From: a phage
DNA length: 64,000 nucleotides
Strand: one strand, 5' to 3'
Sequence record: PV874203.1
Of the stretch, positions 12,477 through 51,881 are shown in pieces. The notes below the pieces were generated by a model. That model saw only the letters and a list, made by a program, of their open reading frames with translations, was not told the DNA's origin and ran no database searches. The translations under genes and the position numbers were made by a program. Every line of letters starts with the position of its first letter. Positions within the stretch are counted from its first letter, which is position 1.

Positions 12477-13083
12477 CATTTATGTTATTCCCAAATTACT
12501 TCGGGTATCGGACTATATCATAACAGCATAGCTAATTTGCTGTTGTTGGCGCTTCGAGGGTTTCCCTGTTAACCCCCTACTCCCGCAGGATAGTCTCTAC
12601 ACTTTCCACTTTCGAATCCATCTACAAGCGATTCCAAAGCTCACACCAAACCTTTCTGCAAGAGCAACACCAGTACATTCATTATTAAGCCAGAACTCTT
12701 TAGCAGCATCCTGTCTTTCTCTGTTTCTACCAGTATTTGATTCTATGGCATGTGCACTACCTTCTAAGATCTCTAGATGATCAGTGTTACAACATGCCCT
12801 ATTCTTGCATTTGTGGTTAACTTCGTAGCCGTCAGGAATGTTTCCAAACTTCTCTTCCATGACATACCTATGATACATGACCCATTTGCCATTTATCACT
12901 TTTCGAAAGTATCCATCTTTATTTAATTTGTGTGAGATAGGGATGATACATCCTGTGCTAGTTGTTTCTAGCACTAGATCTTTCTTAGCCATATCACCTC
13001 CTAATAGCTTAGCTCGGTATTGCCCTCAACTTAATGGTCGGGTTTCACCGAGTTCACCAACTTTTACATGCACAATGAAGTTT
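12477..13083 (-). mobile_element. Putative group I intron interrupting the DNA polymerase gene at motif C, carrying an HNH homing endonuclease ORF
   Basis: 607-nt insert between exon 1 ending ...VIDMH (codon CAU, so U precedes the 5' splice site) and exon 2 starting DE...; last insert nucleotide is G. Exon 1 frame runs into the insert for 9 codons then stops. Boundaries are plus or minus a few nt. Confidence 0.6.
12597..12992 (-). CDS. HNH homing endonuclease (insert-encoded)
   Basis: GYEVNHKCKNRACCNTDHLE motif (HNH_3); lies wholly inside the insert in the polymerase gene. Confidence 0.8.
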   Translation of the reverse strand: MAKKDLVLETTSTGCIIPISHKLNKDGYFRKVINGKWVMYHRYVMEEKFGNIPDGYEVNHKCKNRACCNTDHLEILEGSAHAIESNTGRNRERQDAAKEFWLNNECTGVALAERFGVSFGIACRWIRKWKV

Positions 13084-14775
13084 ATGCATATCAATTACCT
13101 TAGCACAACGAACCTTATCTCTCTCAATCCACTTGTTAAGGAACATCATAGCATATTTCATAACAACAGCACCAGCACATTGCAGGAGAGTGTTAAGTGC
13201 TTTATGAACCATAACCTTACCAGTGGCATCTCGTCTCATTGTAATCTTACGACCATCAACACCAATCAAGTACCCTTGAGCAGCTTTCTCTGTCATACGA
13301 TCAATGAGGATTGCAATACATGGGTTCTCTGCCAAGAAACGTGCTCGCATCACTGAACCTTCGTCAGCCCCACCACCTACAATTGAACCGAGCTTAGCAT
13401 CACCAGCACCATAGTTGAATGCGTAGATAAATGTCTTAGCGTTGTCACGAGTAGGAAGACCAGCAAGTTTCTGGTTGTGGGAGTGTATATCACCTTCAAG
13501 GAGAATATCACGATACATAATAGCAGAAGCTAAACCACGTTCTGCCAGAGCTTTCTTAGCTGGATTGTTTTCTTCTATTGCTTCAGCAAGCATATCCCTA
13601 CACTCTTTAATGAGGTAGTGTGCAAGCATACGCAACTCTAACCCAGAACCATCATACCCCAAGAATACTTCTTTACCAGCGGGTATGTAATATTTGTAAG
13701 CACCTACAGGTTTGTCTTTCTTCCCCGGCTTACCTTTCTCATAAATTACGTTAGTACCTTTTCGTATATAACAACCATCAGGAACAACGTTAGTAATAAC
13801 GAAAGGACGAGAGTGATCATCATCTGAGTTATAGTCAGATTCAAACAAACTGCGACACTCATGACCAAACAAACCACGGGAGGGAATATTAACCACGATA
13901 CGATGTTTGAATCGAAAAGTCGGCGTAGCGCAGCTGTTAGCTTCTGCCGAAAGTTTACCATCTTCGCGCTCCTTTGCTATAAGTCCACTAATAAGACCTA
14001 GCCTGTGAGCCGCTACAACGCGTCTCTTAAGCAAACTTCCGACACTCCCTAGCTCACCCCCTAACCCTTCTTCAAGAGTCTCCTCGAGGTTTGTAGGGGC
14101 TGTAGGCCACTTGTTTGAGGTAGCTAGTGCTATCTTAATCTCATCAAAAGTAATAGGTCTACGTCGGTTAGGATTTAAACCTAAACCAAACACATAAGCC
14201 TTCATGTAGTTCTTAGTTTTAAACCGAAAATGCTTCTCTAAGAACTTTCTAATATCAGCGTCAACCATCTCGGCTGTCTGCTTCTGTTTAGCATTACCTC
14301 GCATCCAAGCTGAATACCATGCTTGGTATGTTCCATACTTTCGCATATCTTTCTTGATTTCAAAAGTATTCCAAGGTTTCTTTGATACATTAAACTCTGG
14401 AGGAAGAAAACCCTCATCCATAAGGGCTTCTTTAACTCGGGCATCTTTCGATGGGTCAAAGGCTACGTACTCTACACAGGTGAATGCTCCACCAATGTCT
14501 TCTCTCTTAAGTCCAACCCTATCACAATAGGCTTGAGGCCACTTCTGTAAAGCTCCAGACTTCTTAAATGGCTTCATATAAGTAGAGCCATCTAATCTCA
14601 TCTTAGGTAAGAGAGGAATCAGTTCTTTGTCAATATTAACAATAATCTCTTTAAGGAGGTGAACATACCACCGAGCATTTCTTCGGTTGAAACTCACTCC
14701 GTGCTTCGCTTGCTTAGAGATTATATCAGCGACAGTCATCTCTGTCAAAAATGGGAGAGCGTCCGGGTTGCTCAC
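13084..14775 (-). CDS. DNA polymerase (family A, T7 gp5-like), exon 1: polymerase domain through motif B, no 3'-5' exonuclease domain
   Basis: Motif A GYDGSGLELRMLAHY, motif B RDNAKTFIYAFNYGAG, and ALNTLLQCAGA segment parallel T7 gp5. Track ORF ends at 13054 after reading 9 codons into the insert. Confidence 0.85.
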
Positions 14776-19115: not shown

Positions 19116-19295
19116 TTATGCAGTCAGGAGGTGAAGAATGAATGGGATAACAACAGCTACGACAACCATAATGGTTGATGCTGTTTGAATCTCACCTTTC
19201 TTGTCAGGGGTTTCTTCAATAAGCTTACCAGAAGCCCAATAAATACCACCACCAATAAAGATAGCCCAAATACCCCATACGATTGCTGATAACAT
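19116..19295 (-). CDS. Hypothetical small membrane protein (59 aa, two predicted TM helices)
   Basis: Sub-threshold ORF found by hand (MLSAIVWGIWAIFIGGGIYWASG...VVVAVVIPFILHLL). Confidence 0.35.
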   Translation of the reverse strand: MLSAIVWGIWAIFIGGGIYWASGKLIEETPDKKGEIQTASTIMVVVAVVIPFILHLLTA

Positions 19296-19352
19296 ATATC
19301 TATATCCTTATAAAGAGAAAACCCCGTCTATTCCTAGACAGGGCTTGAGTTT

Positions 19353-19916
19353 TTAGTAAGACACATCACCACTTGAGTGGGACATGTTGCTCTTGACGAA
19401 GTAGCAATACTTGCCGAGACCTTCATTGATTTCTTGAAGCATACTCTGATCAACTGGATAGGTGGCTAAATCACCATCAAACTCATCCATCTTCTCAATA
19501 ATACACATCAAGGTCATGCACATATCAGAGAGCATACCGTCCATATCTAGGTCAGCATTACCTTCTGAGAACCAAGCATGAGAAAGATAATTGGCTGCTG
19601 TAGCGTCCACTTTAACACAGTGGTAACGCATACGTTCAGCAATACGATCTCCTACTTGTCGTGCGTAATCTTCCAGCTCATCAAACATACCATGAACACC
19701 CTGAAATCCTGCACCAGAGACGTTCCAGTGGTAGTTTTTAGCTTTGATATGCAAGAGTTCCATGTTAGCTTGTAAGCAGCTCAGGATGTGTTCTAGGCTG
19801 TTTCCACTAATCATACCCTGCATAGTTTCAAGGCGAGAGATTGAAAGCTCAGATCGGTCTAACATGTTATATTCTGCACGACCGATTTCAGGTAAATCAA
19901 AGACATTCTTATGCAT
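19353..19916 (-). CDS. Dps/ferritin-like protein
   Basis: KAKNYHWNVSGAGFQGVHGMFDELEDYARQVGDRIAERM matches the Dps helix A/B ferroxidase-region pattern; length about 187 aa. Confidence 0.55.
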   Translation of the reverse strand: MHKNVFDLPEIGRAEYNMLDRSELSISRLETMQGMISGNSLEHILSCLQANMELLHIKAKNYHWNVSGAGFQGVHGMFDELEDYARQVGDRIAERMRYHCVKVDATAANYLSHAWFSEGNADLDMDGMLSDMCMTLMCIIEKMDEFDGDLATYPVDQSMLQEINEGLGKYCYFVKSNMSHSSGDVSY

Positions 19917-20403
19917 TATATTCCCTCCAAGTTTGATTAAGTAGAGCTTTTGACATCACTTGCTGAGAGACACCAAAACGTCTTGCAAGGGCAGAGCCTC
20001 CAAACTCTTTATCTCGAGGGATATAGACTCTCCTACAGTACTCTACATCTTCTAGAGTAAGTTTAGACTGTGGATTGTCTTCTCCAAACCTCTGTACCAT
20101 CAGACCTAATGATGATGCATGTTGAGAGTTTTCTCGGTGGGTACACCATTCAAGATTATCTTTATGATTGTTAAGTTTATTGCCATCCTTATGGTTGACA
20201 CATGGAAGATTATCAGGGTTCGGTATGTACTTACTAGCAACCAGCCTGTGGACATAGAAATTCTTTAATCCTTCAGGAAAGTAAATAGTAACTCTGTAAT
20301 AGGCACCATTAGTGTGGAGGGTTAAAAACCTTCCACTCTTTATAGTAAATACTCTACCATCTTCTGTTACATCAATCTTCCCTTCCAATTCTTTTGGAAT
20401 CAC
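19909..20403 (-). CDS. HNH homing endonuclease
   Basis: YVHRLVASKYI...VNHKDGNKLNNHKDNLEWCTHRENSQH (HNH_3). Confidence 0.8.
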   Translation of the reverse strand: MIPKELEGKIDVTEDGRVFTIKSGRFLTLHTNGAYYRVTIYFPEGLKNFYVHRLVASKYIPNPDNLPCVNHKDGNKLNNHKDNLEWCTHRENSQHASSLGLMVQRFGEDNPQSKLTLEDVEYCRRVYIPRDKEFGGSALARRFGVSQQVMSKALLNQTWREYNA

Positions 20404-20726
20404 TTAGGGTCTTCTCCTTCTAACTCAGTAGAGTTTGCTACATTTCTTTCTAGATTGCTTAGAATTTGCTGGGTAATTACGATGCAGTTCTGTGGGTCTA
20501 CTGACTTAGAACGCCCCATTTCAGGGTCATACACCTTAACACGCTTAGCAGTTGAACCTGTGACCTGAAGAACCTTCAACAGATATCCCTGATTACCGAT
20601 AGACCAAGCAACAACATCACGATTCTTGATAAAGCGACCAAGCATATCACGATGATAAAACTGTTGCATCACCTTGGATTTTGTAATCTCTTCAGTGGGC
20701 GGGGCCACTTTACTCAAATCTAACAT
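20400..20726 (-). CDS. Hypothetical protein
   Basis: 108-aa ORF. Confidence 0.45.
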   Translation of the reverse strand: MLDLSKVAPPTEEITKSKVMQQFYHRDMLGRFIKNRDVVAWSIGNQGYLLKVLQVTGSTAKRVKVYDPEMGRSKSVDPQNCIVITQQILSNLERNVANSTELEGEDPK

Positions 20727-20798
20727 AACTCTCTCCTGTAAAATACAAATTCTTATTGTACTCTATATACATTTGAGAGTTATCATATCTACTACCAA

Positions 20799-51064: not shown

Positions 51065-51319
51065 ATGAATTTAGTATTAGATTTTTTATCAGAGTTGGTG
51101 CCTCGGTTTAGAACGGAGACATATGCTTTCGTAGTCAACAGTGACTCTGAAGAAGGGATGGAAGCTACGTGCTTAGGTCGTCTTGTTGACCTAGATGATG
51201 ATACAGATTTCGATATTACAATTGATGTGAGTAGTTTAGGTTGGCTCTTCTTCAGAGCATTCCTCACTTACAAAGTAGAAACGTATAAAGATTACAGCAA
51301 GGGAGATACAGATGAATAA
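51065..51319 (+). CDS. Hypothetical acidic protein
   Basis: 84-aa ORF. Confidence 0.45.
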   Translation: MNLVLDFLSELVPRFRTETYAFVVNSDSEEGMEATCLGRLVDLDDDTDFDITIDVSSLGWLFFRAFLTYKVETYKDYSKGDTDE

Positions 51320-51881
51320 TTTAATCAAAGCGATGGATCTTAATGAGTATAATTCACAGCTATGTCGCTCTGGTTGTAGCTTACAACATTTAGAAACTAT
51401 GGGAAATGTTTCAGGGTTAGCTGTACAAGATTTATATAGTGGAAGTATTCTTAAACCAAATATTACGGAGAACAAAAACATGTTAGATTTGATTCATACT
51501 ACTCGCCCTGATTCTAAAACTAAAAAACAACCATCTACTCTGGAAGTAGTTGAATACGAATCTACTAAACATGATCACCTCCCTGACTATGCTCGTGCAA
51601 TGATTGAGATGATTGAAGAAGCTGAATATGAAATGCTCCATGATTACATTACCTCCAAAGATGAGTGGCATCGTGATGTTCGAATCGAAGAAGACGGTAC
51701 AGAAACAATTACGTGGATTCACAAGAGTGAGTTAGTAGACGACGCACTGCGAGACTACGAAAAATTTTTGGTCGACGGCTCTATTGTTTTAGAGGGAGAG
51801 AAGGGTGTAGAACTTCCGTGGGAGGGTGAGACGATTGCTTTAGGTAAGATGTTCAACCTGTCCGTTGGTGATTGTAAGTAA
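51312..51881 (+). CDS. Hypothetical protein
   Basis: 189-aa ORF. Confidence 0.5.
   Translation: MNNLIKAMDLNEYNSQLCRSGCSLQHLETMGNVSGLAVQDLYSGSILKPNITENKNMLDLIHTTRPDSKTKKQPSTLEVVEYESTKHDHLPDYARAMIEMIEEAEYEMLHDYITSKDEWHRDVRIEEDGTETITWIHKSELVDDALRDYEKFLVDGSIVLEGEKGVELPWEGETIALGKMFNLSVGDCK

What the first reader, a model, noticed from the sequence alone, without database searches (positions are those of the whole stretch)
19353..19916. Dps/ferritin-like protein encoded by a virulent phage
The sequence around KAKNYHWNVSG...FDELEDYARQVGDRIAERM matches the Dps ferroxidase-helix pattern. A phage Dps-like protein could protect phage DNA from oxidative damage or sequester iron during infection; it is not a standard component of T7-like replication modules.
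Basis: partly seen in the sequence, partly recalled or inferred. Interest (0 to 1): 0.4.

Follow-up and report, generated by a model that had tools for sequence, protein, structure and literature searches.

The report
Phage Dps mini-ferritin, already annotated
This gene of a phiEco32-like coliphage encodes a genuine Dps-type iron-detoxifying mini-ferritin, but it has been annotated as such since 2008 and is a core gene of this phage group, so it is a correct but ordinary rediscovery whose role in infection is still untested.

Summary
The ORF at 19353-19916 is real but lies on the minus strand (187 aa). It is a Dps-family mini-ferritin. Pfam Ferritin scores above its gathering cut-off, PHROG 3636 gives 2.6e-55, and a clade profile hits only solved Dps dodecamers (down to 6.5e-15). 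The AlphaFold model has the Dps four-helix bundle with the short BC helix (target-normalised TM 0.8-0.9 to Dps structures). All inter-subunit ferroxidase residues (K60, H63, W64, H75, D79, D90, E94) are invariant, even in homologs of 30-45% identity from Salmonella, Proteus, Cronobacter and Aeromonas phages. The core is under strong purifying selection (dN/dS 0.02-0.04).

The window is a Kuravirus-type (phiEco32-like) phage, and the protein is 98% identical to phiEco32 gp67, annotated "member of the Dps family". The SU10 (2014) and Privateer (2021) papers already describe it.

Points added here:
- The common "DNA-binding protein" label is not supported for this clade: pI 4.7, net charge -15, and an acidic 45-residue N-extension instead of a Lys-rich tail.
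- "Integrase" labels on this gene are errors.
- The gene forms a conserved pair with an uncharacterised small upstream gene (gp68), split here by a mobile HNH endonuclease.

The most likely role is Fe2+/H2O2 detoxification during phage DNA replication, which is inferred and untested. Novelty: already known.

The parts
19353..19916 (-). Dps-family mini-ferritin CDS (187 aa, 21.2 kDa, pI 4.7), ortholog of phiEco32 gp67 and SU10 CDS67
   Evidence: ORF. Family matches. AF2 model and fold matches. 97.9% identity to phiEco32 gp67.
19785..19916 (-). Clade-specific N-terminal extension (residues 1-44). It is acidic (net about -3, one Lys), has a low-confidence helix at 18-37, and carries a conserved S-x-x-R-L-E/D-x-M motif (R28 invariant). 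Function unknown.
   Evidence: Alignment, charge, pLDDT below 60. Absent from the 146-156 aa homologs of 7-11, GAP52, P59 and LAh_6. dN/dS 0.17-0.28.
19386..19784 (-). Dps core (residues 45-177): helices A 41-65, B 72-98, short BC helix 107-112, C 125-150, D 154-177
   Evidence: AF2 pLDDT 81-96 over the core. Foldseek to Dps dodecamers gives target-normalised TM 0.8-0.9 and rmsd 1.1-1.6 A. dN/dS 0.02-0.04.
19635..19739 (-). Segment encoding the inter-subunit ferroxidase-centre residues K60, H63, W64, H75, D79, D90 and E94, which correspond to E. coli Dps K48, H51, W52, H63, D67, D78 and E82
   Evidence: Invariant in 16 clade members, in five divergent phage lineages and in E. coli Dps. The register agrees with the 1dps alignment.
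19923..19928 (-). GGAGGG ribosome-binding site for the Dps gene, lying inside the 3' end of the HNH ORF
   Evidence: Upstream sequence and junction alignment.
19319..19346 (-). Intrinsic-terminator-like hairpin (12-bp stem, GGAA loop, T-rich tail) starting 7 nt after the Dps stop codon
   Evidence: Scan. Fold energy -17.8 kcal/mol with z -3.1. phiEco32 has a different sequence that also folds into a hairpin (-15.9 kcal/mol, z only -1.5).
19909..20403 (-). Free-standing HNH homing endonuclease (164 aa, GTG start) inserted between the gp68 homolog and the Dps gene. It is not part of the ancestral unit.
   Evidence: PF13392 HNH_3 and phrog_59. Present in only 3 of 98 related records. Insertion junction.
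20400..20726 (-). gp68 homolog (108 aa), the conserved upstream partner gene of the phage Dps. No known family. The low-confidence model shows a small beta-barrel plus a C-terminal helix.
   Evidence: Homologs lie immediately upstream of Dps in phiEco32, P59, GAP52 and LAh_6, and 1.3 kb away in 7-11. The alignment has 19 invariant columns. No Pfam match. AF2 pLDDT 60. Only weak Tudor/SH3-like fold matches.
20765..20809 (-). Promoter-like region upstream of gp68: sigma70-like TTCACT-16-TATGAT (20782-20809) and AAATGTATAT (20765-20774), which resembles the phage-sigma consensus tAATGTAt
   Evidence: Almost identical in phiEco32 and Bas94. The SU7 record annotates a promoter at the equivalent of the sigma70-like site. 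The consensus motif comes from PMC4281155. These are consensus matches only.

Best explanation
The gene encodes a phage Dps mini-ferritin, the ortholog of phiEco32 gp67. It is the last gene of a short middle-gene unit, gp68-(HNH)-Dps, inside the nucleotide-metabolism/replication module. By analogy with cellular Dps, the 21-kDa subunits most likely assemble into a hollow 12-mer. At each two-fold interface, H63 and H75 of one subunit and D90 and E94 of the other bind Fe2+. The iron is oxidised, preferentially by H2O2, and stored inside the cage as a ferric mineral. This would remove both Fenton reactants from the infected cell while phage DNA and dNTP pools are being made, limiting hydroxyl-radical damage to the replicating genome. 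Direct DNA binding through a Lys-rich tail, as in E. coli Dps, is unlikely for this clade. Shown: the ORF, its family and fold, conservation of the catalytic residues, purifying selection, synteny, and expression of the protein in a near-identical phage. Inferred: dodecamer formation, ferroxidase activity, the physiological benefit, and operon structure and timing.
For: Family and fold:
- Pfam Ferritin is above its gathering score.
- PHROG 3636 scores 2.6e-55.
- All significant PDB hits are Dps, by single sequence and by clade profile across residues 39-177.
- The AF2 model has Dps topology including the BC helix and no fifth E helix.
- The top 50 Foldseek hits are all Dps or Dps-like dodecamers.

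Catalytic site:
- K60, H63, W64, H75, D79, D90 and E94 are invariant in 16 clade members down to 48% identity.
- They are also invariant in the 7-11, P59, GAP52 and LAh_6 homologs at 30-45% identity, and they align with E. coli K48/H51/W52/H63/D67/D78/E82.

Selection: core dN/dS is 0.02-0.04 at near-saturated dS.

Context: the gene always lies among dCTP deaminase, thioredoxin, ThyX, PhoH and the replication genes, and next to anaerobic RNR genes in GAP52, LAh_6 and P59.

Expression: the protein was detected by MS in SU10 (PMC4281155).

Against tail-mediated DNA binding: pI 4.73, net charge -15, and an N-extension of net about -3 with one Lys.

Precedent: the same protective role has been proposed for other phage Dps proteins (PMC8008677; PMC6669764).
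Against: - No biochemical or genetic test exists for any phage Dps in the literature I could search. The original phiEco32 paper was not available.
- Oligomeric state could not be modelled.
- NCBIfam Dps equivalog models score far below their cut-offs (34.5 against 114), so this is a divergent member, not an ortholog of a characterised Dps.
- The clade-specific N-extension, the conserved DMCMTL motif in helix C, the high Met and Cys content (15 Met, 5 Cys), and the conserved partner gp68 are not explained by a plain mini-ferritin role.
- The homolog was detected in CsCl-purified Privateer virions, which hints at something beyond a cytoplasmic enzyme.
Confidence: 0.62

Rival explanations
1. Virion-associated Dps. 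The protein, perhaps recruited through its N-extension or through gp68, is packaged in or bound to the very elongated C3 capsid. There it would protect or organise the packaged genome, or be delivered into the next host.
For: - The Privateer homolog was detected by MS in virions purified by CsCl step and equilibrium gradients (PMC7881722).
- SU10 CDS67 was detected in a phage preparation.
- The gene is conserved in all C3-morphotype podophage lineages examined.
- BFVD contains Dps domains inside long uncultured-phage proteins named 'Prohead protease'.
Against: - The SU10 preparation was only PEG-precipitated and also contained DNA polymerase, thioredoxin, PhoH and the sigma factor.
- The SU10 cryo-EM study lists only late-gene products up to gp24 as structural proteins and gp20-24 as the head-internal ejection proteins. 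It does not list gp67, although only major gel bands were analysed.
- The gene lies in the middle replication module, not the late structural cluster.
- From general knowledge, an iron-loaded protein cage can be dense enough to co-band with phage in CsCl.
- The 'prohead protease' fusions could not be verified. The multi-domain relatives show only the Ferritin domain plus unassigned regions.
- The N-extension has no detectable similarity to any other protein in the window.
Confidence: 0.1
2. DNA-binding and condensing protein, as the GenBank label says. It would coat or compact phage DNA or the host nucleoid as E. coli Dps does in stationary phase, possibly with the small beta-barrel protein gp68 as the DNA-contacting adaptor.
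For: - It belongs to the family that includes DNA-binding Dps proteins.
- The non-Kuravirus homologs carry short, mildly basic N-tails such as MLGARPKRP, MIPTKPKSSSK and MARDIIRSRPSLRR.
- The conserved adjacent gp68 gives weak fold matches to nucleic-acid-binding SH3-like barrels such as integrase CTD and PWWP.
Against: - The window protein is strongly acidic (net -15 per subunit, so about -180 per putative 12-mer).
- Its N-extension and C-tail have no basic cluster.
- From established knowledge of the family, Dps proteins without a mobile basic tail, such as Listeria Dps and Bacillus anthracis Dlp-1/2, do not bind DNA.
- The gp68 model is low confidence (pLDDT 60) and no fold hit reaches E 1e-3.
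- The 'DNA binding protein' name traces back to the family name, not to an experiment.
Confidence: 0.1
3. Iron buffer or donor for nucleotide metabolism. The cage would store and release iron for iron-dependent dNTP synthesis, either the host class Ia RNR di-iron subunit or the phage NrdG [4Fe-4S] activase, instead of acting mainly as an antioxidant.
For: - The gene consistently lies in the nucleotide-metabolism module.
- It is directly adjacent to anaerobic RNR genes in GAP52, LAh_6 and P59.
- It is co-conserved with thioredoxin in all C3 phages.
Against: - The Kuravirus genomes examined, including this window, show no NrdD/NrdG or other obvious iron enzyme, yet they keep the gene under strong constraint.
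- From general knowledge, Dps proteins are not established iron donors.
- Adjacency may simply reflect the shared middle-gene block.
Confidence: 0.13

Closest known systems
phiEco32 gp67 (YP_001671812, 'DNA binding protein; member of the Dps family') and SU10 CDS67
   Same: Same gene. Protein identity is 97.9-98.4%, length is the same (187 aa), and it occupies the same position after gp68 and before the thioredoxin/ThyX genes. Phage Ptacy1532 encodes a 100% identical protein.
   Different: In this window, and in only 3 of 98 related records, an HNH homing endonuclease is inserted between gp68 and the Dps gene.
Dps proteins of other C3-morphotype podophages (Salmonella 7-11, Proteus Privateer/P59, Cronobacter GAP52, Aeromonas LAh_6); PHROG 3636
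   Same: Same ferroxidase residues, same module, and the same gp68-like neighbour.
   Different: They share only 30-45% identity, are 146-156 aa long, and have short, mildly basic N-tails instead of the 45-residue acidic extension. Several lie next to NrdD/NrdG, which Kuraviruses lack.
Bacterial Dps mini-ferritins with solved structures: Bacillus anthracis Dlp-2 (1jig), B. subtilis MrgA (2chp), Mycobacterium smegmatis Dps2 (2z90), Listeria Dps (1qgh)
   Same: Same fold with the BC helix, the same inter-subunit ferroxidase signature, and a similar core length.
   Different: Identity is only 20-27%. The phage protein adds an N-extension and a conserved C-tail, is richer in Met and Cys, and scores below the NCBIfam equivalog cut-offs.
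E. coli Dps (host protein; 1dps)
   Same: Same family, and the catalytic residues align one to one.
   Different: It is a very distant relative: single-sequence phmmer E is 0.1-0.2, against 2.6e-9 for the mycobacterial Dps2. The gene is therefore not a recent capture from the host. E. coli Dps binds DNA through a Lys-rich N-tail (established knowledge), which the phage protein lacks.
Dps-like genes of gut 'Gratiaviridae' and Lactobacillus phages
   Same: They are phage-encoded Dps proteins located near replication genes, and the same antioxidant or iron-sequestering role has been proposed for them (PMC8008677; PMC6669764).
   Different: They belong to different phage lineages and hosts, and I made no direct sequence comparison here beyond the BFVD fold hits to the Lactobacillus phage LP65 and Semele proteins.

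Membership tests
Dps (DNA protection during starvation) mini-ferritins | Ferritin-like four-helix bundle with a short extra helix (BC) in the long B-C loop and no C-terminal fifth (E) helix | tested here: met
   The AF2 model has helices at 41-65, 72-98, 107-112 (BC), 125-150 and 154-177, with nothing after residue 177. Best Foldseek matches are Dps chains with target-normalised TM 0.8-0.9 and rmsd 1.1-1.6 A.
Dps (DNA protection during starvation) mini-ferritins | Inter-subunit ferroxidase centre: two His (helices A and B) from one subunit plus Asp and Glu (helix B) from the two-fold partner, with the adjacent conserved Trp, Lys and Asp | tested here: met
   K60, H63, W64, H75, D79, D90 and E94 align with E. 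coli K48, H51, W52, H63, D67, D78 and E82. They are invariant across all phage lineages compared.
Dps (DNA protection during starvation) mini-ferritins | Curated sequence-model membership | tested here: met
   Pfam PF00210 scores 31.1 bits against a cut-off of 24.5. The clade profile hits only Dps entries in the PDB, E down to 6.5e-15. The orthology-level NCBIfam equivalogs are not met (34.5 against 114; 32.2 against 170). The protein is therefore a family member but not an ortholog of a characterised Dps.
Dps (DNA protection during starvation) mini-ferritins | Assembly into a hollow dodecamer with 23 symmetry | not testable with these tools
   Only monomer prediction was available.
Dps (DNA protection during starvation) mini-ferritins | Fe2+ oxidation by H2O2 or O2 and deposition of a ferric core | not testable with these tools
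   This needs biochemistry. No published assay of a phage Dps was found.
DNA-binding Dps subgroup (E. coli Dps type) | Flexible Lys/Arg-rich N- or C-terminal tail that contacts DNA | tested here: not met
   Residues 1-45 have net charge about -3 with one Lys. The C-tail (177-187) has no basic residue. The whole protein has net charge -15 and pI 4.73. All 25 clade homologs are acidic, pI 4.6-5.0.
Classical ferritin / bacterioferritin (24-mer) | Intra-subunit di-iron site built from two E-x-x-H motifs on helices B and D, plus a C-terminal E helix | tested here: not met
   The only E-x-x-H motif is at residues 53-56 in helix A, and H56 is not conserved (H/Y/R). There is no fifth helix. No protein named as a classical 24-mer ferritin appears among the 60 listed profile hits; 3kwo carries the depositors' name 'putative bacterioferritin', a 152-aa chain I take from general knowledge to be a Dps-type protein.
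Integrase (label carried by many GenBank homologs) | Tyrosine- or serine-recombinase catalytic domain | tested here: not met
   Pfam reports only the Ferritin domain at E up to 10. The homolog P0005, named 'integrase [Escherichia phage IME267]', carries PF00210.

The most novel reading that the evidence does not exclude
The Dps gene and the uncharacterised gp68-like gene form a conserved two-gene module specific to C3-morphotype podophages. In this reading the small beta-barrel protein would recruit an acidic iron-oxidising cage to phage DNA or to the virion. The Dps would then be a particle-associated protectant of the packaged or incoming genome, a phage parallel to ferritin cargo in encapsulins, and not merely a cytoplasmic antioxidant.
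Probability: 0.1. Interest if true: 0.55.

Novelty: already known. Interest (0 to 1): 0.2.

Why it matters
If the inferred activity is real, this widespread group of lytic coliphages, several of which are being considered for therapy, carries its own control of iron and peroxide during replication. That would be a testable example of a virus managing oxidative chemistry in its host. The practical value of this check is corrective. The gene is a true Dps. The "DNA binding protein" label is not supported for this clade. The "integrase" label found in many related GenBank records is wrong, which matters because a supposed integrase can disqualify a phage from therapeutic use. The conserved pairing with gp68 is a small new lead for anyone who studies the protein experimentally.

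Tried and rejected
- **Capsid-targeting or shared-motif idea for the N-extension.** BLASTP of residues 1-46 against all window ORFs gave one borderline hit, to ORF 51312-51881 (E 0.034; pairwise E 0.001). A profile of the N-extension built from 16 diverse homologs scored that ORF at E 2.4, which is noise. Rejected as chance.
- **Dps domains fused to prohead protease.** This appeared in BFVD protein names. The multi-domain relatives from the exhaustive search show only the Ferritin domain plus unassigned regions in Pfam and PHROGs. Not verified.
- **Identity of gp68.** No Pfam family. The AF2 model is weak (pLDDT 60). Foldseek gives only generic Tudor/SH3/integrase-CTD/PWWP barrels with E of 8e-3 or worse. 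No assignment made.
- **Defence or anti-defence relation.** No PADLOC match for the Dps, gp68 or the downstream 59-aa membrane protein.
- **Classical ferritin or bacterioferritin.** Rejected.
- **Recent capture of the host dps gene.** Rejected, because E. coli Dps is among the weakest family hits.
- **Original phiEco32 paper.** PMC2587145 could not be read, so its virion proteome and expression data were not checked.
- **Promoter position.** I first equated the promoter annotated in the SU7 record with the AAATGTATAT element. By position it matches the sigma70-like hexamer pair at 20782-20809 instead.

Full report
**Observation.** The coordinates 19353-19916 delimit exactly one ORF, stop codon included, but on the minus strand. 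The plus-strand reading is broken by stops. A GGAGGG ribosome-binding site lies 6 nt upstream of the ATG. N-terminal residues M1 and F6-D-L-P are conserved in homologs down to about 50% identity, which supports this start codon.

**What the genome is.** Megablast of the locus finds 98 phage records, almost all Escherichia phages of the phiEco32 type, at about 94-96% identity among the best matches. In the phiEco32 reference record the orthologous gene phi32_67 is annotated "DNA binding protein; member of the Dps family". Protein identity to the window is 97.9%, and phage Ptacy1532 encodes an identical protein. The neighbours here and in the relatives are dCTP deaminase, a nucleotidyltransferase, the DNA polymerase exonuclease subunit, primase/helicase, thioredoxin, ThyX thymidylate synthase, a small DNA ligase, PhoH and the family A DNA polymerase. 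This is the middle-gene nucleotide-metabolism and T7-type replication block of a lytic podophage.

**Family membership.**
- Pfam PF00210 (Ferritin-like) scores 31.1 bits against a gathering score of 24.5, though only over residues 55-108.
- PHROG 3636 matches residues 35-180 at 2.6e-55.
- phmmer against all PDB sequences returns Dps proteins almost exclusively. The best is Mycobacterium smegmatis Dps2 at 2.6e-9.
- A profile built from 16 clade members aligns across residues 39-177 with Bacillus anthracis Dlp-2 (6.5e-15), MrgA, S. aureus Dps, MsDps2 and Listeria Dps. No classical 24-mer ferritin appears among the hits.
- An AlphaFold2 model (mean pLDDT 80, core 81-96) has helices A 41-65, B 72-98, a short BC helix 107-112, C 125-150 and D 154-177, with no fifth helix. 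This is the topology that separates Dps from ferritins.
- Foldseek against the PDB returns only Dps or Dps-like dodecamers in the top 50, with target-normalised TM 0.8-0.9 and rmsd 1.1-1.6 A for the best.
- The NCBIfam Dps equivalog models are far below their cut-offs. The protein is therefore a divergent family member and not an ortholog of a characterised Dps.
- E. coli Dps itself is one of the weakest hits (E 0.1-0.2), so the gene is not a recent capture from the host.

**Catalytic signature.** I aligned the window protein with phiEco32 gp67, with the homologs of Proteus phage P59, Salmonella phage 7-11, Aeromonas phage LAh_6 and Cronobacter phage GAP52 (30-45% identity), and with E. coli Dps. 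Its register agrees with the 1dps alignment. The alignment shows that K60, H63, W64, H75, D79, D90 and E94 correspond to E. coli K48, H51, W52, H63, D67, D78 and E82, and that they are identical in every sequence. They are also invariant in the 16-member clade alignment. In Dps proteins these residues build the di-iron ferroxidase centre at the two-fold subunit interface (established knowledge of the family). The only E-x-x-H motif, at residues 53-56, is in helix A and is not conserved, so a ferritin-type intra-subunit site is absent.

**Selection.** Nei-Gojobori estimates against SU7 and KBNP1711 (about 82% protein identity) give dN/dS of 0.02-0.04 for the core at near-saturated dS. For the N-terminal 44 residues the ratio is 0.17-0.28. 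The gene is clearly functional, and its extension is constrained but much more loosely.

**Where the protein departs from textbook Dps.**
- The Kuravirus-type proteins carry a 45-residue N-terminal extension that the other phage homologs (146-156 aa) lack. It is acidic (net about -3, one Lys) and predicted with low confidence as a helix at 18-37. It carries a conserved S-x-x-R-L-E/D-x-M motif.
- The whole protein has pI 4.73 and net charge -15, and all 25 database homologs have pI 4.6-5.0. The mechanism by which E. coli Dps binds DNA, a mobile Lys-rich N-tail, therefore has no counterpart here. The widespread label "DNA binding protein" looks like a name inherited from the family. The non-Kuravirus homologs do have short, mildly basic N-tails, so DNA contact is less easily excluded for them.
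- The protein is unusually rich in Met (15) and Cys (5), and helix C carries a nearly invariant G-M-L-x-D-M-C-M-T-L motif. I cannot explain this.

**Gene neighbourhood and expression signals.**
- A small gene, the gp68 homolog at 20400-20726, lies upstream. Homologs with 30-37% identity and 19 invariant columns sit immediately upstream of the Dps gene in phiEco32 (8-nt overlap), P59, GAP52 and LAh_6, and 1.3 kb away in 7-11.
- The SU10 paper independently lists CDS65 (thioredoxin), CDS67 (Dps) and CDS68 among the few middle genes shared by all five C3 phages then known.
- gp68 has no Pfam family. Its model is weak (pLDDT 60) and suggests a five-stranded small barrel plus a C-terminal helix. 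Fold matches are only generic Tudor/SH3-like barrels with E of 8e-3 or worse.
- In this window an HNH homing endonuclease (19909-20403) is inserted between gp68 and the Dps gene. Its GTG start overlaps the gp68 stop. Its TAA stop overlaps the Dps start codon region (ATGCATAAG), exactly as the gp68 stop does in phiEco32. Only 3 of 98 related records carry this insertion.
- Upstream of gp68 lie a sigma70-like hexamer pair (20782-20809) and an AAATGTATAT element (20765-20774) that resembles the phage-sigma consensus tAATGTAt. These are nearly identical in phiEco32 and Bas94. The SU7 record annotates a promoter at the position of the sigma70-like site.
- A 12-bp hairpin with a T-rich tail follows the Dps stop codon (19319-19346; -17.8 kcal/mol, z -3.1). 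phiEco32 has a different sequence there that still folds into a hairpin, although its z-score of -1.5 is not remarkable.
- Together these suggest a short gp68-(HNH)-Dps transcription unit. This is inferred and not shown.

**What is already published.**
- The Dps assignment appears in the phiEco32 record.
[quoted passage not shown] - Phage-encoded Dps proteins and their proposed antioxidant or iron-sequestering role have been discussed for gut "Gratiaviridae" and other phages (PMC8008677) and for Lactobacillus phages (PMC6669764).
- I found no experimental test of any phage Dps. The original phiEco32 paper was not available to me.

**Most likely mechanism.** Full conservation of the inter-subunit ferroxidase residues over deep divergence, strong purifying selection, the Dps-specific fold and constant placement in the replication and nucleotide-metabolism module all point the same way. 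The best-supported reading is a cytoplasmic mini-ferritin that oxidises Fe2+ with H2O2 and stores Fe3+. This would suppress Fenton chemistry while phage DNA is replicated. Shown: identity, fold prediction, residue conservation, selection, synteny, and expression in a near-identical phage. Inferred: dodecamer formation, catalysis and the benefit to the phage.

**Rivals.**
- *Virion association.* The Privateer homolog was found in virions purified by CsCl step and equilibrium gradients. However, the SU10 detection came from a PEG-only preparation that also held many non-structural proteins. The SU10 cryo-EM study lists only late-gene products up to gp24 as structural proteins, with gp20-24 as the head-internal ejection proteins. 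That study analysed only major gel bands. From general knowledge, iron-loaded cages can be dense enough to co-band with phage in CsCl.
- *True DNA binding.* This is disfavoured by the charge analysis for this clade.
- *Iron donor for ribonucleotide reduction.* This is suggested by adjacency to NrdD/NrdG in relatives. Kuraviruses keep the gene without those enzymes.
- *Defence or anti-defence.* No link was detected.

**Leads that failed.** A borderline similarity between the N-extension and ORF 51312-51881 disappeared in a profile test (E 2.4). The Dps domains in BFVD proteins named "Prohead protease" could not be substantiated, because multi-domain relatives show only the Ferritin domain plus unassigned sequence.

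**Verdict.** The feature is already known at the annotation and literature level, and it is a core gene of its phage group, not an oddity. Three things remain open: the untested biochemistry, the acidic N-extension, and the conserved gp68 partnership together with the unexplained virion-preparation detections. Interest is low (0.2). The most novel reading not excluded is a particle- or DNA-associated gp68-Dps module, with a probability of about 0.1.

Noticed in passing
window 19909-20403 (-): A free-standing HNH homing endonuclease (PF13392; NUMOD4-like N-terminus) is inserted precisely between the gp68 homolog and the Dps gene. Only 3 of 98 related phage records carry it. It recreates the same overlapping stop/start junction (ATGCATAAG) that gp68 has with gp67 in phiEco32. 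SU7 carries a different HNH gene between thioredoxin and ThyX, so this module seems to be a hotspot for homing endonucleases.
   Followed up: partly
window 19353-19916 (-); GenBank homologs such as IME267, ES17, IMEP8, EcoN5, DE5: Many related GenBank records name this Dps gene 'integrase'. The protein has only a Ferritin-like domain and no recombinase domain, so the label is an error that has been propagated. It could wrongly flag these lytic phages as temperate.
   Followed up: yes
window 20400-20726 (-): The gp68 homolog (108 aa) is conserved across all C3-podophage lineages, with invariant H25-R-D, W41, G44 and an N-x-x-V-I-x-x-Q motif. It almost always sits directly upstream of the Dps gene. 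It matches no known family, and the low-confidence model suggests an SH3/Tudor-like barrel. SU10 proteomics also detected it (CDS68).
   Followed up: partly
window 20799-21008 and 21008-21202 (-): Two adjacent small ORFs (69 and 64 aa) both match PHROG 4939 (unknown function). They are tandem paralogs just upstream of the gp68-Dps unit.
   Followed up: no
window 19116-19295 (-): A 59-aa ORF immediately after the terminator-like hairpin looks, by eye, like it has two hydrophobic segments, suggesting a small membrane protein (PHROG 9296, unknown function). It is conserved next to the Dps gene in Kuraviruses.
   Followed up: no
window residues 127-136 of the Dps protein (about 19509-19538, -): A nearly invariant G-M-L-x-D-M-C-M-T-L motif lies in helix C. 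The protein has an unusually high Met (15) and Cys (5) content for a Dps (E. coli Dps, as recalled, has no Cys). Its structural or metal-binding meaning is unexplained.
   Followed up: no
BFVD entries A0A6J7XDU5, A0A6J7WPK9, A0A6J7WIS1 (fold search); relatives P0135, P0148, P0149, P0068: Dps domains occur inside much longer proteins of uncultured phages (230-777 aa), some of them named 'Prohead protease'. P0135 has two Dps-matching stretches. The non-Dps parts match no Pfam family, so any capsid link remains unverified.
   Followed up: partly
window 51312-51881 (+): A 189-aa ORF at the start of the late cluster matches PHROG 12176, which is labelled 'ABC transporter'. That label looks implausible for a protein of this size. 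Its weak similarity to the Dps N-extension proved to be chance.
   Followed up: partly
L006 13604-16154 (Bas94 DNA polymerase I, joined CDS) compared with window 13054-14775 (-): In the close relative Bas94 the DNA polymerase gene is annotated as two joined pieces interrupted by an endonuclease VII gene. The window has a single 573-aa ORF at the corresponding place. This is another sign of mobile endonuclease or intron traffic in this module.
   Followed up: no
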